Below, one piece after another: positions 22 through 40,067 of a stretch of DNA of 51,688 nt. The stretch's first letter is position 1. Every line of letters starts with the position of its first letter. Origin of the DNA: Candidatus Woesearchaeota archaeon. Lineage in GTDB: Archaea; Nanobdellota; Nanobdellia; Woesearchaeales; WAPY01. The stretch spans positions 1-51,688 of the forward strand of contig JAWBOW010000002.1 in assembly GCA_038825775.1 (NCBI GenBank), in the 5' to 3' direction. The translations under genes and the position numbers were made by a program. The notes under the pieces are model-generated. The model searched no databases. It was not told where the DNA came from and saw only the letters and a list, made by a program, of their open reading frames with translations.

Positions 22-1374
22 TCAAAAGTTTATTCCCTTAAAATTCTTCATTAAACTTTGAAGGTTTTTTGGAATCTTAGAACCCCTAATTTGGGACCTC
101 AACATTTTTGCAAGCTTTTTTGATTGTCTGTATTGTTTTAATAATAATCTTATATCACTAACAGGAACTCCAGAACCCTTGGATATTCTGTTAATTCTAC
201 TTATATTAATTATGTCCGGGTTTTCAAGCTCTTCCTTAGTCATTGAATCCATAGCATACCTCCACTTCTCAAGCTTTTCCTGCTGCACGTCCAACAATTC
301 TTTTGGGAGTTTAAAACTTGAGAATCCTGGAATCAAATCAACTATTTTTGATAAGGGCCCCATCTTTTTCATAGCAATCATTTGGTCGTATAAATCCTTT
401 AGAGTGAATTTTCCTTCCAAAAATTTTTTAGTTAAATCTTCTGCTTTTTCTTCAGGAACCGCTTCCCTAACCTTTTCAAGCAACGATTTTAAATCACCAA
501 AACCTAATAGTCTTGAAACAAAACCCTCTGGGTCAAAAACCTCTAAATCATTTATTTTCTCTCCAACCCCAATAAACTTTACAAAAGCTCCTGTTGCTTT
601 ACAAGCAGTTATAGCACCTCCTCCTTTAGCAGTTCCTTCAAGTTTTGTAATTATAACTCCTGTAATCCCACAATTCTCATGAAAGGCTTCTGCTTGTTTT
701 TTAGCAGCTTGTCCAATATCAGCGCTTAAAACTAATAAAACCTCGTCAGGCATTATTTTTTGCTTTAAACTCTTCATCTCTAAAACCAAGTCCTCTGAAA
801 GAGCATCCCTTCCAGCAGTATCAACAATAACAACGTCATAGTTTTTTAGTTTTGTTTTAAACTCCTCAAAAATATTTAGAGGATTCTTTTCGTTCTTGTT
901 TCCAAAAACATCAACATTAATTTGTGAGCCAAGTTGTAATAATTGTTCATAAGCTGCTGGCCTATAAGTGTCTGTTTGTAACATCGCAACTTTAAATCCT
1001 CTTTTCTTAAAATAATTTGCAAGTTTAGCAGCAGTTGTTGTTTTGCCACTAGCGTATAAACCAACAAGCATTATAAAAAAAGGTGTTTTTGTAACATTAA
1101 TCCTTGCTTCTTTCTCTCCCAAAAATTTAACTAATTCCTCATAAACAATCTTCATTATAACTTCTTTTTTTGTCAGTCCAGGAATTTCTTCCTTCAAAGC
1201 CCTTGATTTTATCCTTTCAGAAAGTTCAAAAACAAGATTAACATCTACATCACTTTGTAATAAAGCCCTTTGAATATCCCTAACAATCTCCTCAATTAGA
1301 GATTTATCTACAAAAACACTCTTCATTAACTTATCAAGAGTATTTCTTAATCCCTGACTTAGTTTTTCAAGCAT
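22..1374 (-). CDS. srp54: Signal recognition particle protein SRP54
   Basis: 450 aa from the ATG at 1374 (MLEKLSQGL...). It has an N domain, GTPase motifs GLYASGKTTTAAKLA, DTAGR and TKLEG, and a C-terminal Met-rich M domain. The tracked start at 1497 runs into the 5S rRNA gene and is rejected. A TATA-like TTTTATATATT lies about 27 nt upstream, so the mRNA may be leaderless. Confidence 0.95.
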   Translation of the reverse strand: MLEKLSQGLRNTLDKLMKSVFVDKSLIEEIVRDIQRALLQSDVDVNLVFELSERIKSRALKEEIPGLTKKEVIMKIVYEELVKFLGEKEARINVTKTPFFIMLVGLYASGKTTTAAKLANYFKKRGFKVAMLQTDTYRPAAYEQLLQLGSQINVDVFGNKNEKNPLNIFEEFKTKLKNYDVVIVDTAGRDALSEDLVLEMKSLKQKIMPDEVLLVLSADIGQAAKKQAEAFHENCGITGVIITKLEGTAKGGGAITACKATGAFVKFIGVGEKINDLEVFDPEGFVSRLLGFGDLKSLLEKVREAVPEEKAEDLTKKFLEGKFTLKDLYDQMIAMKKMGPLSKIVDLIPGFSSFKLPKELLDVQQEKLEKWRYAMDSMTKEELENPDIINISRINRISKGSGVPVSDIRLLLKQYRQSKKLAKMLRSQIRGSKIPKNLQSLMKNFKGINF

Positions 1375-1430
1375 GATAAAAAAAGAACAAGAAAACAATA
1401 TATAAAAGTTATGAAAAAATAAAGCGCAAA

Positions 1431-1448
1431 ACGAAATCTTTAAATAAT
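1431..1448 (+). promoter_or_regulatory. BRE/TATA-like promoter for the 5S rRNA
   Basis: CGAAATC followed by TTTTAAATAA, centred about 26 nt upstream of the predicted 5S 5' end. This matches the archaeal BRE (cRnaAnt) plus TATA (TTTAWATA) pattern. Confidence 0.45.
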
Positions 1449-1468
1449 ACTTAAGGACAACTTTAGTT

Positions 1469-1587
<119 letters not shown>

Positions 1588-8051: not shown

Positions 8052-9884
8052 TCAAATAACTTGAAAATCAAAACAAACCCTATACTTTCTTGGAGAAACT
8101 TGGCCACAAATAGCGTATTCTTTAAACAAAATCCTCTTGTTTTGTTTTTTTGCTTCTTTTCTTATTAGTTCATAACCCTTTTTTGGAATTTCCTTTTCAT
8201 TTAAAAATGTGTAAAAATGAATTATTCCGTTTTTTCTTATTGCCTTAAAAGCAATGTTTAAGAAATTGTGTCCTGTTTTTGGAAGAGGCATTATTATTCT
8301 TGAAAACTTTGATTTTTCAATAACTAATTTTTGAATATTATCATAAGTGTTTAGCATTTCTTTTGCTTCAAGCTCACTTTTAGAATAAACTTCTACAATT
8401 CCAAAATCAACAACTTCTAATATTTTATTAAAATCCAAATGGCCTTTTCCAAAATCAACCGTGTCAATACTTTTATCCTTCCCCCTTAATTTTCCATCAG
8501 TGTCTGCTATGTGAACATAAACATTCAGCTTGTCTTTTAATTCTAAAAGTGTTTTAATCATTAATTCTTGATTCTTTGTTGCAATGTAAAAGTGTGCTAA
8601 ATCAAAACAAAAATTCTTTAAATCCAAATCAAATAAAATTTGTTTTATTTCTTCAGGTTTTGAAAAAAAACCTGAATTAATGTTTTCTAAGAAAAGGAAT
8701 TTCTTAAAATTTTCATTTGAAACCAACTTTTTTATTTCTCTCAAGAATACTTCTTCGCTTGTTTTTTCATCTTGTGCTCTGTAAGGGTGAACAACAAAAC
8801 CTAAAACATTGTTGTTTTTCAAACACAAATCAAGAAGTTCATTATAACATAATTTTGAGTTCTCGATTAAATCCTCATTGCTTAAAGAAACGTGTTTGTC
8901 ATTAAAGGAGAAGGGTTGGTGAAGCATAACCTTGATTCCTTTCCTTCCCAATGATTTTATTTTCTTGTCAATTTTTTGTTTTTTATTCTCCAAATCTCCC
9001 TTTCTTAAATAGAACTCTATAATTTTTGGTTTTTTCTTTAAACGAACATTCAGTTCTTTGGAGTTCCAATGAGATTTTAAACCAATTATTGGTTTTCTTT
9101 GTTCTATTATTTTTGGAACTTCTATTCTAACGTCCCCGTTTACTAAAATGAGTTTTTGCTCAGGAATTTTATTTAAGCTCCTGTTTATTATTGCATAATT
9201 ATGAGCTTCTTGATTTAATTCAACAGCATAAACAACTCTTGGATTAGAATGTTTTATGATTGTTATCGGATAAGCGCCATAGCCGGAAAACATTACCAAA
9301 ACATCTTCACCAATACTTACTTTCTTTGCTATTCTCAACCTTTCAGAGCTTAACCTTGTAGAAAAATAAACTCTTTCAACATTCAGCATAAACCTACAAT
9401 TGTTTTCAATGTATATTGTTTCTTTTTTGTCAAGCCCTGCTATTAATTTATACTTTTGAACCCTAAAATCTCCTTCGTGAGAACTTGCCTTTTTAAGAAC
9501 TGTTTTTATGTTAGAATGTGTTTTTAAGAGTGATTCTCCAACGATTTTCTCAAACTTTTCAAATCCTCTTGGAATTTCTATTATTGCAATGTCTCCAACA
9601 ACTTCGAATGATTTTTTTATTTTATCCGATTTTTCTCCAAATCTTTCTTTTAGAAGTTCTCTAAAACCTTTCTTCTTTTCATTAAAGTTTTTTTCAACTA
9701 TTTCAAACTCCTTAACAATCTTTTTTAAATTCTCCTTTATTTTTTCAACAGATTCTTCTTTTATTGGAAAAAATATTTCTTCAAGATTCTTTTCTATCAA
9801 AAAATCTTTGTTTAAAAAATCATTTTTTATTAGAAATGACTTTACTTTTTCAGCATTTTCTTTTTTTACCTTTAATCCAAACAT
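8052..9884 (-). CDS. trm5: tRNA (guanine37-N1)-methyltransferase Trm5/Taw2 family with a nested xylose-isomerase-like TIM-barrel domain
   Basis: Trm5 motifs are split. FEVVGDIAIIE, VYFSTRLSSER, VLVMFSGYGAYPI, AVELNQEA and NGDVR occupy aa 1-257. SRIIMPLPKTGHNFL...IHFYTF...YRVCFDFQV occupy aa 527-610. The roughly 270 aa between them carry VVHPY, LFLENI, CFDLAH, VHIADTDG, FGKGHLDF and IVEVY. Confidence 0.85.
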   Translation of the reverse strand: MFGLKVKKENAEKVKSFLIKNDFLNKDFLIEKNLEEIFFPIKEESVEKIKENLKKIVKEFEIVEKNFNEKKKGFRELLKERFGEKSDKIKKSFEVVGDIAIIEIPRGFEKFEKIVGESLLKTHSNIKTVLKKASSHEGDFRVQKYKLIAGLDKKETIYIENNCRFMLNVERVYFSTRLSSERLRIAKKVSIGEDVLVMFSGYGAYPITIIKHSNPRVVYAVELNQEAHNYAIINRSLNKIPEQKLILVNGDVRIEVPKIIEQRKPIIGLKSHWNSKELNVRLKKKPKIIEFYLRKGDLENKKQKIDKKIKSLGRKGIKVMLHQPFSFNDKHVSLSNEDLIENSKLCYNELLDLCLKNNNVLGFVVHPYRAQDEKTSEEVFLREIKKLVSNENFKKFLFLENINSGFFSKPEEIKQILFDLDLKNFCFDLAHFYIATKNQELMIKTLLELKDKLNVYVHIADTDGKLRGKDKSIDTVDFGKGHLDFNKILEVVDFGIVEVYSKSELEAKEMLNTYDNIQKLVIEKSKFSRIIMPLPKTGHNFLNIAFKAIRKNGIIHFYTFLNEKEIPKKGYELIRKEAKKQNKRILFKEYAICGQVSPRKYRVCFDFQVI

Positions 9885-9927
9885 AAAGAGAAAGAACTTA
9901 AATTTTGCTTATAAGTTTTTTGATATT

Positions 9928-10947
9928 TTAACCAAAAAAGCTTTTAAGATCTTTTTGTGATTGTTTTTTTACAAGAGGCTCTAACAACTTTCTTGTCCTC
10001 TGCTCTGAAAAGTCGTGCTCTAATAAAATTTTTAGAGTTTTATCTAAATTTATTTCGTGCCAATTTAGTTTGTAATTTTCTGTTACTGGAATGTTCTTTA
10101 TTGTTTCAAAAACTTCTTGCCAGGAAAAATCAAAATCCCAACTAACATTTTTGAATATTTGATCAAAATTCTTACCATACTTCCTTACTAATTCAAGAGC
10201 TCTTTTTGGACCTATGCCACTTACACCTCCAGGATTATAATCAGTTCCTATCAATATGCATAAAACTATTAATTGCTCATGATCTATACCTAAATTGTTA
10301 AGATTCTCATCTAATAATATTATCTCTGGCTCTACCTTTTCGTACAAAACTTTGTTTTGTATCTTCTTTCTTCCAGTAACTGAAAGATTCATTATCAATT
10401 TTGGGGCACCAAACATTAAAGAATCCTCATCTTGAGAAGCTATTGCAAAACAATCCCCTTTCTTTACCATAAAAGAAGCTTGTGCTTCTGCCTCGCTTGG
10501 AGCATCAATCCAAGGTATTCCTAACGCACTTAAAAGTTCCTTTGATTCTTGAATCATCTCAGGACTTAATTTTGAGATTCTTGAAGCGTATTTTCTTGCT
10601 TCTTCAATAAGTCCTTTTTCAACTGCTTCCTCATAAAGTTTTAGCGCTTCTTCTTTTTGAGCAGCTCTTAATTTTTGTATTCTGTGTTTTAGTTCTGGTG
10701 ATTTTCCTTCAAACACAAAAACAGGTTTTATTCCTTTGTTTAGAAAGTTTATAGTTCTTGTAAATAATCCCATCAAGTGACTCGTTATTCTGCCTTTTGA
10801 ATCCGTAAATGGTTTCCCATCTGGTTGTCTTATTGTTGATAAGAATTGGTATAAAAAAACAGGAGCGTCTATAACTATTATTTTTGATTTTAACTCTTCA
10901 AAACTCACCTTGTGTTTTATTAAGAGTTCGGTTAGTTTAACTCCCAT
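9928..10947 (-). CDS. fen: Flap endonuclease 1 (FEN1)
   Basis: XPG-N and XPG-I nuclease motifs are present (VIDAPVFLYQF, APSEAEAQASF, SQDEDSLMFG, GTDYNPGGV.GIGPKRA). The C terminus has a PIP box, QKDLKSFF. Confidence 0.95.
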   Translation of the reverse strand: MGVKLTELLIKHKVSFEELKSKIIVIDAPVFLYQFLSTIRQPDGKPFTDSKGRITSHLMGLFTRTINFLNKGIKPVFVFEGKSPELKHRIQKLRAAQKEEALKLYEEAVEKGLIEEARKYASRISKLSPEMIQESKELLSALGIPWIDAPSEAEAQASFMVKKGDCFAIASQDEDSLMFGAPKLIMNLSVTGRKKIQNKVLYEKVEPEIILLDENLNNLGIDHEQLIVLCILIGTDYNPGGVSGIGPKRALELVRKYGKNFDQIFKNVSWDFDFSWQEVFETIKNIPVTENYKLNWHEINLDKTLKILLEHDFSEQRTRKLLEPLVKKQSQKDLKSFFG

Positions 10948-10960
10948 TTTTGTATTTAAA

Positions 10961-11911
10961 CTATTGTAGTTTTATTTCCTTTATTATTAAACTAGAAACT
11001 TCCCTTTCAAAGAATTCCCTTGCCTTCTTTGTCAACTTACCAGTTATTAATAAGATTGCTGGAAGTTTCTTTGATTGTGCTTGAACAAAAACCTTGCTTA
11101 AATCTGCTTCGTTTATTGATTTCTTATTAAGCACCTTGCAATAATAATTTAGCTCCCCAACAGGTGTTTTTATTTTTATTATAAAATCAAACTCTTTATT
11201 CTTACTTATTATTTCTTGATTATCAACTGTAATGTTGTTTTGTCTGAAAAAGTTTAATATTTGTGATAAAAATTCTGTTTGTTCTTGTATTTTTGTTTTT
11301 TGCTTTTTTGGTTTTGACAAAACAATATTTTCCTTTTCAAAAATAGGACTAATAGGAGTTGTTGTTTTTTGAATCGTCTTTTCCTTAAAATCTTCTTTAA
11401 TTACATCTTGTTTTATTACCTCTTGTTTTATTTTTGGAATTTCCTTTTCTTCTTTTAAAATTGGTTTTTGCTCAACTGTTTCTTGGGCTATAAGTTTTTT
11501 TGCAGATTCCTCATCTAACAAATACCATCTCCAGAACAAAACATCTTCATTGTTTTTCTTCACAAAAAATGGTTTTGCAAAATCCTTAACTTGTCTTAGA
11601 GAAACCCTTGTAAGGGGATCCAACAAAGAGTCCTGCATTACTTTTTTTTCTTTTAATATTAAAACTGTTTGTCTATCTTTCTCATTAAGTTTTGAAATAA
11701 AGTCTTGAAGTTTTGATTCTTGTCCTGGTAAATAATAGAGTGGTGAGTTTCCAACTTTAAGATTTGAAATTTTTACAATACCTCTGCTTGAAAGTTCTGA
11801 TAGTATTGCAGAAGCAATAAGTATAGATGTCTTAAAATTTTCAGCTAATTGTGATGGGACAATAGGACCTTTTATTCTTAAAAAACTCAAAACTTCCTCT
11901 TCTTTGGGCAT
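10961..11911 (-). CDS. Hypothetical winged-helix protein with an uncharacterised C-terminal alpha/beta domain
   Basis: The N terminus looks like a wHTH (LSFLRIKGPIVPSQLAENFKTSILIASAILSELSSRGIVK). A K/E-rich linker follows. The C-terminal part FDFIIKIK...YYCKVLNKK...AILLITGK vaguely resembles a restriction-endonuclease-like fold. Confidence 0.6.
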   Translation of the reverse strand: MPKEEEVLSFLRIKGPIVPSQLAENFKTSILIASAILSELSSRGIVKISNLKVGNSPLYYLPGQESKLQDFISKLNEKDRQTVLILKEKKVMQDSLLDPLTRVSLRQVKDFAKPFFVKKNNEDVLFWRWYLLDEESAKKLIAQETVEQKPILKEEKEIPKIKQEVIKQDVIKEDFKEKTIQKTTTPISPIFEKENIVLSKPKKQKTKIQEQTEFLSQILNFFRQNNITVDNQEIISKNKEFDFIIKIKTPVGELNYYCKVLNKKSINEADLSKVFVQAQSKKLPAILLITGKLTKKAREFFEREVSSLIIKEIKLQ

Positions 11912-11996
11912 AAAAAAATAGATTTTGTTCTTATTTATATTTATTTTGTTTTGTTTTAAAAGAAAGATTTTTTTAATTTTGCTGAATGTTTAATAT

Positions 11997-12602
11997 CTAA
12001 GGTCTTATCCACCTTATCTCATAATAAGTAACATCTGACTCGTCATCAACAATTCCTATTAAGAGTTTTTTCTTTGTTGAATGTGCAACCCTGTTTTTTG
12101 CTGCAAATTCATACCATGTCAGGTTTTCTGCTTCGTGAACAGGATAAACAATCCATTTTGCATGACTCTCACCGGGTTTTAGGCCCCTATCATACACTCT
12201 AAAATCAGCCCCAAACTTAAGTGCTGTTTTTATTATATAACCCCTATCTCTTATGTCCTTAAAAACACAGTAACGAACCCAAAAATTTGGCTCAACTTTT
12301 CTCGCTTTTTTCAAAAAATCGTCAGGACTTATTAGTTTGTTCCTATAATCATAAACTTCAATCTTATCCTTTGACATTAAATAAAAAGCTTCTAACAACG
12401 AGAGTTGGACTCTACCATCATTTAACAACGAACCAAAAACGCTTTGAGTGTTAAGCAATCTTGCTTCGTCACTGTTTTCTGTTAAAACCCTTTCCCTAAC
12501 TAATAAACACTTTATTTTCTTCTTTTTTAATTCTTGCTTTGTTTCTTCTTGATCAGTAACTGTCTTTTCTTCTAAATTTGTTTTTTTGGTTTCCTTTGTC
12601 AT
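11997..12602 (-). CDS. endA: tRNA-splicing endonuclease EndA
   Basis: Catalytic-domain pattern: GYIIKTALKFGADFRVYDRG...HAKWIVYPV...AHSTKKKLLIGIVD. It also has a K/E-rich N-terminal extension. Confidence 0.85.
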   Translation of the reverse strand: MTKETKKTNLEEKTVTDQEETKQELKKKKIKCLLVRERVLTENSDEARLLNTQSVFGSLLNDGRVQLSLLEAFYLMSKDKIEVYDYRNKLISPDDFLKKARKVEPNFWVRYCVFKDIRDRGYIIKTALKFGADFRVYDRGLKPGESHAKWIVYPVHEAENLTWYEFAAKNRVAHSTKKKLLIGIVDDESDVTYYEIRWIRP

Positions 12603-12689
12603 TGTTTTTGAGAGTAATTTTATAATATTTAAAAATTTAACTGAGAAAAAAAGAATAAATATAAATAATAATTGAATATAACTTTTGTT

Positions 12690-13586
12690 ATGATAAAAAT
12701 ATTGTTTTTAGGAACTAGTTCTATGGTCCCAACCAAGGACAGAAACCACACTTCAATACTTTTAAAATTTAAAGAAGAGAACATATTGATTGATTGTGGT
12801 GAAGGAACTCAAAGACAATTAAAGATTGCTAATGAAAAAGTAACTAGAATAACTAAGATTTTAATAACTCACTGGCACGGAGATCATGTTTTGGGAATTC
12901 CTGGGTTGTTGCAAACTATGGCTGCGAGCAATTACCAAAAAACTTTGTTGATTTTTGGTCCTGATGGAACTAAAAAATTCTTTGAAAACATAATGAAGAT
13001 TTTTGTTTTTAACAATCAAATAAATTATGAGGTAAGAGAGATTTCTAAAGACGGAGTTTTTTATGAAAATGAGGATTTTAAGATAGAAGCTTACAAGCTA
13101 GAACACAAAATCCCTTGCTTGGGTTATCGCTTTGTGGAAAAAGATAAAAGAAAAATAAATGTTGCCGCACTTAAAAAATACAAAATACCTGAAGGCCCTA
13201 TTGTTGGAAGATTACAAAGGGGTGAAGATATTGTTTACAATGGAAAAAGAATAAGAGCTGATGATGTGAGTTATATACAAAAAGGTAAAATTGTTGGTTT
13301 TATAACTGATACAAATGTTTGTGAAAACTGCCTTAATGTTGCAAGTGATGCTGATATTCTAATTTCAGAAGCAACTTTTAAGGAAGATTTAGAGGAAAAG
13401 GCGTTAGAGTATTCTCACCTCACTGTAAAGGATGCGGCTTATATAGCAACAAGGGCTAATGTTAAAAAATTAGTTCTCACCCATTTTAGTCAAAGGTATA
13501 AGGGGATTGGAGAGCTTGAAGAGGAAGCAAAGAAGTATTTTAAAAATAGTGTTTGTGCTTATGATTTTATGAGAATAAGCTTATAA
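12690..13586 (+). CDS. rnz: Ribonuclease Z (tRNA 3' endonuclease)
   Basis: Metallo-beta-lactamase motifs are present: LFLGTSS, ILIDCGEGTQRQ, HWHGDH and LTHFSQRY. I prefer the ATG at 12690 over the tracked TTG at 12672. Confidence 0.9.
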   Translation: MIKILFLGTSSMVPTKDRNHTSILLKFKEENILIDCGEGTQRQLKIANEKVTRITKILITHWHGDHVLGIPGLLQTMAASNYQKTLLIFGPDGTKKFFENIMKIFVFNNQINYEVREISKDGVFYENEDFKIEAYKLEHKIPCLGYRFVEKDKRKINVAALKKYKIPEGPIVGRLQRGEDIVYNGKRIRADDVSYIQKGKIVGFITDTNVCENCLNVASDADILISEATFKEDLEEKALEYSHLTVKDAAYIATRANVKKLVLTHFSQRYKGIGELEEEAKKYFKNSVCAYDFMRISL

Positions 13587-39969: not shown

Positions 39970-39974
39970 AAGTT

Positions 39975-40046
39975 GGGCTCGTAGTTCAATGGTAGAACGC
40001 TGCCTTCGCAGGGCAGAAGCTCCGGGTTCAAATCCCGGCGAGTCCA
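39975..40046 (+). tRNA. tRNA-Ala (anticodon CGC)
   Basis: A 72-nt cloverleaf folded by hand: acceptor GGGCTCG/CGAGTCC with the G3:U70 Ala identity pair; D arm GTTC-AATGGTA-GAAC; anticodon arm CTGCC-TTCGCAG-GGCAG; T arm CCGGG-TTCAAAT-CCCGG; discriminator A. There is no intron and no encoded CCA. Confidence 0.95.
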
Positions 40047-40067
40047 TTATCAAAATTATTTTAATTT

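What the first reader, a model, noticed from the sequence alone, without database searches (positions are those of the whole stretch)
8052..9884. Complete TIM-barrel domain nested inside the catalytic domain of a Trm5-type tRNA methyltransferase
Seen in sequence: this is one uninterrupted 610-aa ORF.
- aa 1-257 carry the Trm5/Taw2 (Met_10) elements in canonical order: a D1-like N terminus, FEVVGDIAIIE, VYFSTRLSSER, VLVMFSGYGAYPI, AVELNQEA and NGDVR.
- In characterised Trm5 enzymes the catalytic loop DR(I/V)IM-x-x-P follows that last strand within a few residues.
- Here the equivalent SRIIMPLPKTGHNFL...IHFYTF...YRVCFDFQV does not appear until aa about 527-610.
- The intervening about 270 aa (nt about 8307-9113) carry, in order, the hallmark motifs of the xylose-isomerase-like / AP-endonuclease-2 TIM barrel: VVHPY, LFLENI, CFDLAH, VHIADTDG, FGKGHLDF and IVEVY.

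Inference: a whole metal-dependent TIM barrel (a sugar-phosphate isomerase/epimerase or Endo IV-like fold) sits in a loop next to the methyltransferase active site. I know of no described Trm5/Taw2 with this architecture. It could couple a second chemistry on position-37 (wyosine-type) modification, or it could be a moonlighting repair or isomerase activity.
Basis: partly seen in the sequence, partly recalled or inferred. Interest (0 to 1): 0.72.

Follow-up and report, generated by a model that had tools for sequence, protein, structure and literature searches.

The report
Metal-enzyme barrel nested inside tRNA methyltransferase
A tRNA-methylating enzyme (Trm5) of uncultivated Woesearchaeota-type archaea carries a second, complete and apparently active metal-dependent enzyme domain spliced into the middle of its catalytic fold; the arrangement is real, recurs in dozens of species, comes and goes as a clean cassette, appears undescribed, and the inserted domain's substrate is unknown.

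Summary
Window 8052-9884 (-) is one 610-aa ORF. A complete Trm5b-type tRNA m1G37 methyltransferase (D1-D2-D3) is interrupted at aa 263-523 by a full (β/α)8 barrel of the AP_endonuc_2 / xylose-isomerase-like superfamily. AlphaFold gives pLDDT 95 and pTM 0.85, and the two methyltransferase halves re-form one Trm5 fold.

It is not an assembly artefact. At least 85 protein clusters and at least 36 species-representative genomes, all Woesearchaeota/Nanoarchaeota MAGs, carry the insert at the same point.

The barrel belongs to an uncharacterised clade that also exists as free-standing proteins of about 255 aa. Its invariant residues reproduce seven of the nine Endo IV metal ligands, plus an approximate eighth. 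Its nearest solved relatives by sequence are MJ1311 and Endo IV, not sugar epimerases. I therefore favour a multinuclear metallo-phosphoesterase. The substrate (tRNA, DNA or a small molecule) is unresolved.

Unexpectedly, orthologous syntenic trm5 genes in close relatives differ only by presence or absence of the barrel, and one pair shows a swapped barrel.

Verdict: a new variant of a known kind, with moderately high interest.

The parts
8052..9884 (-). Whole ORF: 610 aa plus TGA stop, a Trm5b-type methyltransferase with a nested barrel
9693..9884 (-). Trm5 domain D1 (aa 1-64; Pfam Trm5_N matches aa 3-47)
9429..9662 (-). Trm5 domain D2 (aa 75-152, Pfam TYW2_N_2); it carries R141, the equivalent of MjTrm5 R145
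9099..9419 (-). N-terminal half of the Rossmann methyltransferase domain D3 (aa 156-262): strands β1-β3 and helix αC. It contains Y173, E181, the AdoMet motif VLVMFSGYGAYP, E222 and D251.
   Evidence: Pfam profile positions 1-100; secondary structure; residue mapping
8316..9098 (-). Inserted (β/α)8 barrel (aa 263-523) of the AP_endonuc_2 superfamily, in the Endo IV / MJ1311-like clade
8391..9077 (-). Span holding the codons of the invariant barrel residues: K270 (9075-9077), E290 (9015-9017), H322 (8919-8921), H366 (8787-8789), E400 (8685-8687), D428 (8601-8603), H431 (8592-8594), H458 (8511-8513), D461 (8502-8504), D474 (8463-8465; H, D or E in 53 of 56 sequences) and E498 (8391-8393)
8055..8315 (-). 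C-terminal half of methyltransferase domain D3 (aa 524-610): strand β4, the catalytic loop, and β5-β7
8277..8291 (-). Catalytic loop M532-P-L-P535-K, equivalent to N265-L-P267-K of MjTrm5. P535 is invariant.

Best explanation
Shown. The gene encodes one polypeptide containing two complete enzyme folds. The host is an archaeal Trm5b-type tRNA (guanine37-N1) methyltransferase with all AdoMet-binding and catalytic residues intact. Its Rossmann domain is interrupted, between helix αC and strand β4, by a whole (β/α)8 barrel that folds as an independent excursion. The barrel belongs to an uncharacterised clade of the AP-endonuclease-2 / xylose-isomerase-like superfamily. That clade also occurs as free-standing proteins of about 255 aa in related archaea. 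The same residues are invariant in the nested and the free-standing forms. The barrel is present or absent as a clean cassette at one fixed site of orthologous trm5 genes.

Inferred. The invariant set is H322, H366, E400, D428, H431, H458 and E498, plus H/D/E at position 474. It matches the Endo IV / MJ1311 multinuclear metal site. So the barrel most likely binds two or three metal ions and hydrolyses a phosphoester, as Endo IV and CbiR do, rather than epimerising a sugar. I put that at about 0.55.

My preferred substrate is a nucleic acid. Fusion to Trm5 would tether the barrel to tRNA, for end-healing or lesion-processing chemistry. I put a tRNA substrate at about 0.3. The methyltransferase half should work as in M. 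jannaschii Trm5.
For: Architecture and fold:
- The Pfam split and its rejoining, and end-to-end alignment of the joined flanks to 2yx1 and 5yac.
- AF2 on the full protein: pLDDT 95.4, pTM 0.85. Barrel strands are at 266-271, 288-292, 318-322, 360-365, 397-400, 424-428, 454-459 and 494-497.
- Foldseek hits whole Trm5 structures (2zzm, 2zzn, 5wt1) at TM 0.79-0.82 normalised to the target, over about 615 alignment columns.
- The insert alone gives pLDDT 96.8 and pTM 0.93.

Methyltransferase intact: R141, Y173, E181, E222 and P535 are invariant and D251 nearly so (54 of 56) in the long forms.

Barrel identity:
- PF01261 is above threshold in 27 of 31 inserts.
- The insert profile's best PDB hit is M. 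tuberculosis Endo IV 5zhz at 3e-7, then APN1 at 1.6e-3. A sugar isomerase appears only at E 8.
- The profile of free-standing members hits MJ1311 (3wqo) at 3e-18 and Endo IV structures at 1e-9 to 1e-6. Epimerases score above 0.01.
- hhalign of the insert profile against MJ1311 gives probability 96%.
- NCBIfam hits are only sub-threshold. The most frequent is the CbiR phosphodiesterase (16 of 61 members); Endo IV models and several sugar-epimerase models match a few members each.
- A superfamily alignment places H322, H366, E400, D428, H431, H458 and E498 on E. coli Nfo H69, H109, E145, D179, H182, H216 and E261. UlaE and YcjR share only the E-D-H-E subset and have Leu or Pro at the H366 column.
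- The same residues are invariant in 85 nested and 61 free-standing barrels.

Conservation and cassette behaviour.
Against: - No biochemical data exist for any member of this barrel clade. Its closest solved relative, MJ1311, is itself of unknown function.
- Fold search ranks sugar epimerases (YcjR, UlaE; TM 0.68-0.76) slightly above Endo IV (0.64).
- The Nfo D229/H231 pair is not reproduced exactly. The family has H, D or E one residue out of register.
- E290 on β2 is shared with epimerases and MJ1311, not with Nfo.
- The same ligand set also occurs in the iron-dependent oxidase MbnB. Ligands alone do not fix the chemistry.

Against a tRNA substrate specifically:
- Close relatives do without the barrel.
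- Free-standing copies keep the same active site with no Trm5 attached.
- The insertion point and the barrel termini lie on the faces opposite the two active sites, so the sites probably point away from each other. This is inference, because no coordinates were available.
Confidence: 0.6

Rival explanations
1. The barrel is a DNA-repair AP endonuclease / 3'-diesterase, the lineage's Endo IV equivalent. It merely rides inside trm5 and gains co-expression with the FEN1 gene immediately upstream. There is no functional coupling to tRNA.
For: - It has Endo IV-type ligands and Endo IV as a top sequence relative.
- MJ1311 is listed as the predicted Nfo homolog of M. jannaschii, next to the proven P. 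furiosus enzyme PF0258 (PMC2770678).
- FEN1 lies 43 nt upstream on the same strand in the window.
- Free-standing copies exist.
- The barrel is dispensable in close relatives.
Against: - FEN1-Trm5 adjacency is equally common in barrel-less loci: 39 of 44 short-form loci against 28 of 36 long-form loci. It therefore predates the insert.
- The barrel does not reach any Endo IV family threshold.
- From memory, the MJ1311 structure paper reports no DNA-binding groove.
- At least one Woesearchaeal genome also carries another conserved MJ1311-like barrel (L043).
Confidence: 0.2
2. The barrel is a small-molecule enzyme, either a sugar or sugar-phosphate epimerase/isomerase or a CbiR-like phosphodiesterase. 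It was fused to Trm5 by chance or for co-regulation.
For: - The best structural matches are YcjR, UlaE and TM0416.
- The E-D-H-E core and the β2 Glu are shared with epimerases.
- Sources annotate relatives as 'sugar phosphate isomerase/epimerase'.
- More distant relatives are fused to NeuB-SAF sugar enzymes.
- The most frequent NCBIfam hit is CbiR, a phosphodiesterase acting on a cofactor (PMC7733943).
Against: - Sequence profiles rank epimerases far below Endo IV and MJ1311.
- The invariant extra histidines are unnecessary for mononuclear epimerases. In particular H366 is Leu or Pro in UlaE and YcjR.
- No sugar or cofactor genes neighbour the nested or free-standing copies.
Confidence: 0.15
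3. The barrel is a selfish or mobile cassette. A nuclease-family domain spreads into, and is lost from, one permissive site of trm5 by homing-like gene conversion, and is tolerated in frame rather than spliced out.
For: - Presence or absence differs between very close, syntenic orthologs. In L090 and L091 the neighbouring genes are 86-90% identical. The window and L094 share gene order and differ at trm5 by the barrel.
- Long and short forms interleave in the methyltransferase tree.
- P0026 and P0053 have flanks 78-88% identical but barrels only 28% identical.
- The domain comes from a nuclease-containing superfamily.
Against: - There is no Hint/intein signature or junction nucleophile.
- Catalytic residues are invariant in all 85 nested copies, with no decayed copies.
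- Barrel and methyltransferase identities co-vary (r = 0.60). This fits mainly vertical descent.
- Composition shows no discontinuity (GC3 0.245 against 0.17-0.23).
- There are no hits to defence or phage libraries.
- Endo IV-type enzymes are structure-specific, not sequence-specific (background knowledge).
- Ordinary homologous recombination between alleles explains the pattern.
Confidence: 0.05
4. The barrel binds iron and acts as an oxidase (MbnB / MNIO-like) on a tRNA base, or it is a non-catalytic tRNA-binding module.
For: - MbnB structures match the family profile at 6e-6 and use the same ligand framework.
- CbiR is oxygen-sensitive and needs a reductant (PMC7733943).
- Many long forms lack the elbow-binding D1 domain.
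Against: - MbnB ranks below Endo IV and MJ1311.
- No partner protein is conserved nearby.
- Strict conservation of about ten active-site residues, also in free-standing copies, argues against a purely structural role.
- The apparent enrichment of D1 loss among long forms is confounded by ranking bias.
Confidence: 0.05

Closest known systems
Archaeal Trm5b, tRNA (guanine37-N1)-methyltransferase: M. jannaschii MJ0883 (PDB 2yx1, 2zzm, 2zzn) and P. abyssi Trm5b (5yac)
   Same: It has the same D1-D2-D3 architecture. With the insert removed, the sequence aligns end to end (E 2e-43 and 4e-42). The model superposes on the tRNA-bound structures at TM 0.79-0.82. The equivalents of R145, Y177, E185, D251 and P267 are conserved.
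   Different: A 261-aa barrel is inserted between αC and β4. The catalytic loop reads M-P-L-P-K instead of N-L-P-K; this change is also present in barrel-less Woesearchaeal relatives. The NCBIfam Trm5b score (196 bits) is far below the equivalog cut-off of 600.
MJ1311 of M. jannaschii (PDB 3wqo, deposited as 'uncharacterized protein')
   Same: It is the best solved-structure match of the free-standing family profile (E 3e-18) and a confident match of the insert profile (hhalign probability 96%). It has the same H, H, E, D-x-x-H, H-x-x-D motifs and the β2 Glu.
   Different: It is a free-standing 293-aa protein and only a distant relative. The insert profile alone does not retrieve it by hmmsearch. 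Its function is unknown. It was predicted to be an Nfo homolog (PMC2770678). From memory, its structure paper (Uechi et al. 2014, not held here) reports the Endo IV zinc ligands but no DNA groove.
Endonuclease IV (Nfo / Apn1) AP endonucleases
   Same: Both are TIM barrels. Seven of the nine Nfo metal ligands are matched by invariant residues: H69, H109, E145, D179, H182, H216 and E261. Endo IV is among the top sequence-profile hits.
   Different: The D229/H231 pair is not reproduced in register. No Endo IV family model reaches threshold. The DNA-intercalating loops were not identifiable. Here the domain is nested inside another enzyme.
CbiR cobamide-remodelling phosphodiesterase (Mok et al. 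2020, PMC7733943)
   Same: It is the most frequent NCBIfam match of the barrel family. It shows that this superfamily's phosphodiesterase chemistry is used on substrates other than DNA.
   Different: Scores are far below the cut-off (28 against 105 bits). No cobamide genes lie nearby.
Ketose and sugar-phosphate 3-epimerases (UlaE 3cqj, YcjR 6wn6, TM0416)
   Same: They give the highest structural similarity (TM 0.68-0.76) and share the E-D-H-E metal site.
   Different: In UlaE and YcjR the H366 column holds Leu or Pro. UlaE has Asn at the H431 column (YcjR keeps His), and YcjR has a gap at the H322 column (UlaE keeps His). Neither has a metal-binding residue at column 474. Sequence-profile E-values are above 0.01.

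Membership tests
Trm5b / Trm5-TYW2 methyltransferase family | Pfam domains Trm5_N, TYW2_N_2 and TRM5-TYW2_MTfase, each above its gathering score | tested here: met
   31.7, 63.1 and 132.6 bits against cut-offs of 22.7, 27.7 and 28. The joined flanks cover methyltransferase profile positions 1-163 of 164.
Trm5b / Trm5-TYW2 methyltransferase family | Three-domain fold superposable on solved Trm5 | tested here: met
   Foldseek hits 5yac, 2zzn, 2zzm and 5wt1 at E 1e-24 to 6e-29 and TM 0.77-0.82 normalised to the target.
Trm5b / Trm5-TYW2 methyltransferase family | AdoMet-binding and catalytic residues: MjTrm5 R145, Y177, E185, D223, D251 and P267 (roles recalled from the MjTrm5 literature) | tested here: met
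   R141, Y173, E181, E222, D251 and P535 are invariant or nearly invariant in the 56 long forms.
Trm5b / Trm5-TYW2 methyltransferase family | N-L-P-K catalytic loop, with Asn at MjTrm5 position 265 | tested here: not met
   Pro533 replaces the Asn in all 56 long and all 25 short Woesearchaeal forms examined. This is a clade feature, not linked to the insert.
Trm5b / Trm5-TYW2 methyltransferase family | NCBIfam equivalog score for Trm5b (NF047730) | tested here: not met
   196 bits against a cut-off of 600. Trm5b is the best of the Trm5/Taw models. The assignment to the Trm5b subtype rather than Taw22/Trm5a therefore rests on ranking only.
Trm5b / Trm5-TYW2 methyltransferase family | m1G37 methyltransferase activity | not testable with these tools
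   Needs an enzyme assay.
AP_endonuc_2 / xylose-isomerase-like TIM-barrel superfamily (PF01261) | Pfam score above gathering, and a (β/α)8 fold | tested here: met
   44.7 bits against 31.1, with 27 of 31 inserts matching. AF2 gives eight β/α units at pLDDT 96.8. Foldseek hits are superfamily members.
Endonuclease IV (Nfo) family | Nine metal ligands: H69, H109, E145, D179, H182, H216, D229, H231 and E261 | tested here: inconclusive
   Seven are matched by invariant residues. Column 474 holds H, D or E in 53 of 56 sequences but lies one residue out of register with H231. There is no conserved D229 equivalent.
Endonuclease IV (Nfo) family | Family model score (TIGR00587 / NF0021xx) | tested here: not met
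   The insert has no Endo IV hit. Only a few free-standing members hit, all below cut-off.
Endonuclease IV (Nfo) family | DNA-binding groove and intercalating residues (Nfo R37, Y72, L73); AP-site incision | not tested
   These loops could not be aligned reliably and no coordinates were returned. Activity needs an assay.
Ketose / sugar-phosphate 3-epimerases (UlaE, DTE, YcjR) | Mononuclear E-D-H-E metal site and family-level sequence similarity | tested here: inconclusive
   The E-D-H-E site is present, but it is shared by the whole superfamily. Sequence profiles reach only E 0.02-0.12 against epimerase structures. No NCBIfam epimerase model hits the insert.
CbiR phosphodiesterase (NF041277) | Equivalog score, and neighbouring cobamide genes | tested here: not met
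   27.9 bits against 105. No cobamide genes appear in any locus examined.
Intein / homing element | Hint domain and Cys/Ser/Thr junction nucleophiles with a C-terminal His-Asn | tested here: not met
   No Hint or intein Pfam hit. The junctions read ...QRKPIIGLKS... and ...KLVIEKSKFSRIIM..., with no conserved nucleophile.

The most novel reading that the evidence does not exclude
The Endo IV / MJ1311-type barrel acts on tRNA itself and uses Trm5's anticodon-arm and elbow grip as its delivery platform. That would be a previously unknown metal-dependent tRNA repair, processing or modification activity, for example healing of 3'-phosphate or 2',3'-cyclic-phosphate ends, or incision at damaged or abasic anticodon-loop nucleotides. 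It would also give the first functional clue for the widespread, uncharacterised MJ1311-like archaeal barrels.
Probability: 0.3. Interest if true: 0.85.

Novelty: new variant of a known kind. Interest (0 to 1): 0.6.

Why it matters
- Both parts are known folds, but a complete TIM-barrel enzyme nested inside the Rossmann fold of a core tRNA-modification enzyme appears undescribed. It recurs across at least 36 species-level genomes.
- By Rosetta-stone reasoning, the fusion links an orphan clade of Endo IV/MJ1311-like metalloenzymes to tRNA metabolism, and that link is directly testable.
- The clean presence or absence of a 240-260-aa catalytic domain at one site in otherwise syntenic orthologs is a natural experiment. 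It shows how far a Rossmann methyltransferase tolerates domain insertion.
- It may also illustrate how the reduced genomes of DPANN archaea shuffle functions between fused and free-standing forms.

Tried and rejected
- Assembly chimera: rejected. The same junctions occur in at least 36 independent genome assemblies and at least 85 protein clusters. Composition shows no break. Reads themselves could not be mapped.
- Intein: rejected. There is no Hint domain and no junction nucleophile.
- TYW1/Taw1-type radical-SAM barrel: rejected. There is no Radical_SAM hit and no CxxxCxxC motif.
- FEN1 adjacency as evidence for a base-excision-repair role: rejected. The adjacency is just as frequent in barrel-less loci.
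- Conserved operon for the barrel: none. Contexts of nested copies in distant relatives (L002, L003) and of free-standing copies (L004, L086, L088, L092, L093) all differ.
- Free-standing barrel next to a short-form trm5: none within 4 kb in 44 loci, nor in L090 or L094.
- Defence-system and phage protein libraries: no relevant hits.
- Direct repeats at the insert boundaries: only a chance-level 9-mer.
- The word-indexed homolog search with the insert profile returned a single protein. The exhaustive search was needed to reveal the free-standing family.
- One PDB search was an accidental repeat.
- The MJ1311 structure paper could not be retrieved, so its content is cited from memory only.
- Fold search could not separate epimerase from nuclease relatives.
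- The relative orientation of the two active sites could not be measured, because no coordinates are returned.
Full report
**1. Observation**

Window 8052-9884 (minus strand) is a single 610-aa ORF with an ATG start and a TGA stop. Pfam finds Trm5_N (aa 3-47), TYW2_N_2 (75-152) and a TRM5-TYW2 methyltransferase domain broken into two stretches. The first stretch, aa 156-257, covers profile positions 1-100.

The middle segment alone reaches the Pfam gathering threshold for AP_endonuc_2, the xylose-isomerase-like TIM barrel (44.7 bits against 31.1, E 1.8e-11). The two flanks joined in silico give one continuous methyltransferase match to profile positions 1-163 of 164. They also align end to end with M. 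jannaschii Trm5 (2yx1, E 2e-43) and P. abyssi Trm5b (5yac, E 4e-42).

**2. Anatomy**

I aligned 56 long homologs with insert-free relatives and MjTrm5. The insert lies at aa 263-523 (nt 8316-9098), at the same point in every long form, and is 236-268 aa long.

AlphaFold2 with the family alignment gives mean pLDDT 95.4 and pTM 0.85. Methyltransferase strand β3 (245-249) and helix αC (252-263) lead straight into eight β/α units. The barrel strands are at 266-271, 288-292, 318-322, 360-365, 397-400, 424-428, 454-459 and 494-497. The last barrel helix (508-524) leads straight into methyltransferase strand β4 (527-532) and the catalytic loop M-P-L-P-K (532-536).

The full model superposes on whole Trm5 structures across the gap (5yac, 2zzn, 2zzm, 5wt1). 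E-values are 1e-24 to 6e-29, TM is 0.77-0.82 normalised to the target, and the alignments span about 615 columns. The two halves therefore do rebuild one Trm5 fold. The insert alone folds with pLDDT 96.8 and pTM 0.93.

The insertion is in the αC-β4 crossover, at the N-terminal end of β4. In Rossmann-type methyltransferases the cofactor and substrate bind at the C-terminal ends of the strands. The barrel is therefore close to the catalytic loop in sequence but probably on the opposite face in space. This is inference, because the tool returns no coordinates.

**3. Not an artefact**

A homolog search found about 57 clusters of 490-634 aa that carry both Pfam domains, down to 33% identity. All come from Woesearchaeota, Nanoarchaeota or Nanobdellota MAGs. 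A scan of one genome per GTDB species found 581 related loci. Of the best 80, 36 carry the barrel inside trm5, each from a different assembly. GC and GC3 of the insert (0.276 and 0.245) match the flanks. Reads could not be mapped, but a chimeric join is excluded by this conservation.

**4. What the barrel is**

Fold search places it in the xylose-isomerase-like superfamily but cannot split the sub-families. YcjR, UlaE and TM0416 give TM 0.68-0.76, M. tuberculosis Endo IV gives 0.64, and UVDE gives 0.61.

Sequence evidence does discriminate.

- The insert profile's best solved relatives are Endo IV (5zhz, 3e-7), APN1 (1.6e-3) and a viral AP endonuclease (0.011). A sugar isomerase appears only at E 8.
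- The exhaustive search revealed 61 free-standing full-length relatives of 245-290 aa.
- Their profile hits MJ1311 (3wqo) at 3e-18, eight Endo IV structures at 1e-9 to 1e-6, MbnB at 6e-6 and E. coli Nfo at 1e-4. Epimerases score above 0.01.
- hhalign of the insert profile against MJ1311 gives probability 96%.
- NCBIfam gives only sub-threshold hits. The most frequent is the CbiR phosphodiesterase, and Endo IV models and several sugar-epimerase models match a few members each.

I took E. coli Nfo, UlaE and YcjR from the K-12 genome. I checked that the published ligand numbers fall on the expected residue types.

In a superfamily alignment the invariant barrel residues H322, H366, E400, D428, H431, H458 and E498 fall on Nfo H69, H109, E145, D179, H182, H216 and E261. 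The UlaE ligands E155, D185, H211 and E251 fall only on E400, D428, H458 and E498. The H366 column is Leu or Pro in the two epimerases.

Column 474 is H, D or E in 53 of 56 sequences. It lies one residue out of register with Nfo H231, and a D229 equivalent is not conserved.

The same residues are invariant in the nested and the free-standing copies: K270, E290, H322, P324, H366, E400, N401, D428, H431, H458 and E498. The active site is therefore under the same constraint in both contexts.

Kiyonari et al. 2009 list MJ1311 as the predicted Nfo homolog of M. jannaschii, beside the proven P. furiosus AP endonuclease PF0258 (PMC2770678). From memory, the 3WQO paper (Uechi et al. 2014) reports the nine Endo IV zinc ligands but no DNA groove. 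That paper was not retrievable here. CbiR shows that the superfamily's phosphodiesterase chemistry also serves substrates other than DNA (PMC7733943).

**5. The methyltransferase is intact**

The equivalents of MjTrm5 R145, Y177, E185, D223, D251 and P267 are R141, Y173, E181, E222, D251 and P535. They are invariant or nearly so in all long forms. N265 is replaced by Pro in both long and short Woesearchaeal forms.

**6. Evolutionary behaviour**

This was the unexpected part. Long and short forms interleave in a neighbour-joining tree of the shared methyltransferase columns. Fifteen of 62 short forms have a long form as their nearest neighbour.

- Short P0090 and long P0019 sit in orthologous, syntenic loci (L090 and L091). 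FEN1 is 90% identical, the downstream 418-aa ORF 86%, and the Trm5 flanks about 80%. The loci differ by a clean 237-aa barrel in place of a linker of about 7 residues.
- The window itself shares gene order with L094 (short form P0037) across the region: TFIIB, a methyltransferase, cytidylate kinase, SecD, SecF, Trm5, FEN1, orf316, EndA, RNase Z, Hjc and TFIIE. Within trm5 the difference is the barrel.
- Among long forms, barrel identity and methyltransferase identity co-vary (r = 0.60). The barrel evolves faster, with mean identity 33% against 54%.
- One pair is a mosaic. P0026 and P0053 have flanks 78-88% identical but barrels only 28% identical. Other pairs at that methyltransferase identity have barrels 66-71% identical.
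- Seven free-standing proteins nest among the nested barrels in the barrel tree.

I read this as an old insertion that is mostly inherited vertically. The barrel has been lost repeatedly, or the alleles exchanged by recombination. At least one barrel has been replaced, and fission to free-standing genes is possible. These trees are simple NJ trees without support values.

**7. Context**

RNase Z, the tRNA-splicing endonuclease EndA, an unannotated ORF, FEN1 and Trm5 form a conserved block in loci both with and without the barrel. The FEN1 adjacency therefore says nothing about the barrel. Free-standing barrels have no conserved neighbours. No locus carries two barrels.

**8. Mechanism and rivals**

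My best-supported reading is a bifunctional protein: a working m1G37 methyltransferase plus an Endo IV/MJ1311-type multinuclear metallo-phosphoesterase.

- I put about 0.55 on phosphoesterase chemistry.
- I put about 0.3 on tRNA as the substrate. The fusion partner, the rigid predicted joint (pTM 0.85) and the presence of another conserved MJ1311-like barrel in the lineage (L043) favour it.
- Arguments against tRNA: the barrel is dispensable in close relatives, free-standing copies keep the same active site, and the two active sites probably face away from each other.

The rivals are:

- a hitch-hiking DNA AP endonuclease (0.2);
- a small-molecule epimerase or phosphodiesterase (0.15);
- a mobile nuclease cassette (0.05);
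- an iron oxidase or a purely structural module (0.05).

**9. Novelty**

Full-text searches found no description of this architecture. Both folds are known. The nesting, the orphan barrel clade and the cassette-like presence or absence are new. I rate it a new variant of a known kind, with interest 0.6.

Noticed in passing
window 8052-13586 (and L001, L006-L085, L090, L091, L094): A conserved gene block runs RNase Z (opposite strand), tRNA-splicing endonuclease EndA, an unannotated ORF, FEN1, then Trm5. FEN1 lies within 4 kb upstream of trm5 in 28 of 36 barrel-carrying and 39 of 44 barrel-less loci. The window and L094 share the same gene order across the region.
   Followed up: partly
window 10961-11911 (-): A 316-aa ORF between EndA and FEN1 has no Pfam hit. 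It is nevertheless conserved at this position in 19 of 36 long-form and 26 of 44 short-form loci.
   Followed up: partly
window 8277-8291 (-), aa 532-536: The Trm5 catalytic loop reads M-P-L-P-K instead of the N-L-P-K of M. jannaschii Trm5. The Asn-to-Pro change is invariant in both long and short Woesearchaeal forms.
   Followed up: partly
L008, L010, L015, L016, L018, L025-L027, L030-L032, L035, L037, L039, L045; proteins P0006-P0011, P0017, P0028 and others: Many barrel-carrying Trm5 proteins (514-560 aa) lack the N-terminal elbow-binding D1 domain: about 15 of 37 long loci against 3 of 43 short loci. The comparison is biased, because D1-less short forms score lower and drop out of the top 80.
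   Followed up: no
L043 6283-7041 (+): A 252-aa MJ1311-like TIM-barrel gene lies 1.25 kb downstream of a short-form trm5. Its family of about 254 aa is 60-87% identical across Nanoarchaeia, Aenigmatarchaeota, Bathyarchaeia, Archaeoglobus and Acidilobus. It is annotated only as 'sugar phosphate isomerase/epimerase'. Its best NCBIfam hit is CbiR, below the cut-off. The conservation is striking and the function is unknown.
   Followed up: partly
proteins P0026 and P0053: This is a mosaic pair. The methyltransferase flanks are 78-88% identical but the nested barrels only about 28% identical, with indels. This suggests barrel replacement or an independent acquisition at the same site.
   Followed up: partly
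proteins P0243, P0256, P0261: More distant relatives of the barrel (E 1e-12 to 1e-14) occur as NeuB-SAF-AP_endonuc_2 fusions, that is, in a sugar (sialic-acid-synthase-like) context.
   Followed up: no
L012, L013, L016, L018, L020 and other loci: Many third-party MAG records titled 'uncultured Methanosarcinales archaeon' carry Woesearchaeota-type trm5 loci. The titles are probably taxonomic mislabels.
   Followed up: no
window 8276-8284 and 9110-9118: A 9-nt direct repeat (TTTTTGGAA) brackets the insert. On the coding strand it encodes (L/V)-P-K in the catalytic loop and in helix αC. It is at chance level for a 921-nt AT-rich stretch.
   Followed up: partly
window 1470-1587 (+) and 39974-40047 (+): There is a 5S rRNA gene, whose start is overlapped by a mechanical ORF at 22-1497 (-), and a single tRNA-Ala(CGC). 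No tRNA-Phe gene and no wyosine-pathway gene were seen in the parts of the window examined.
   Followed up: no
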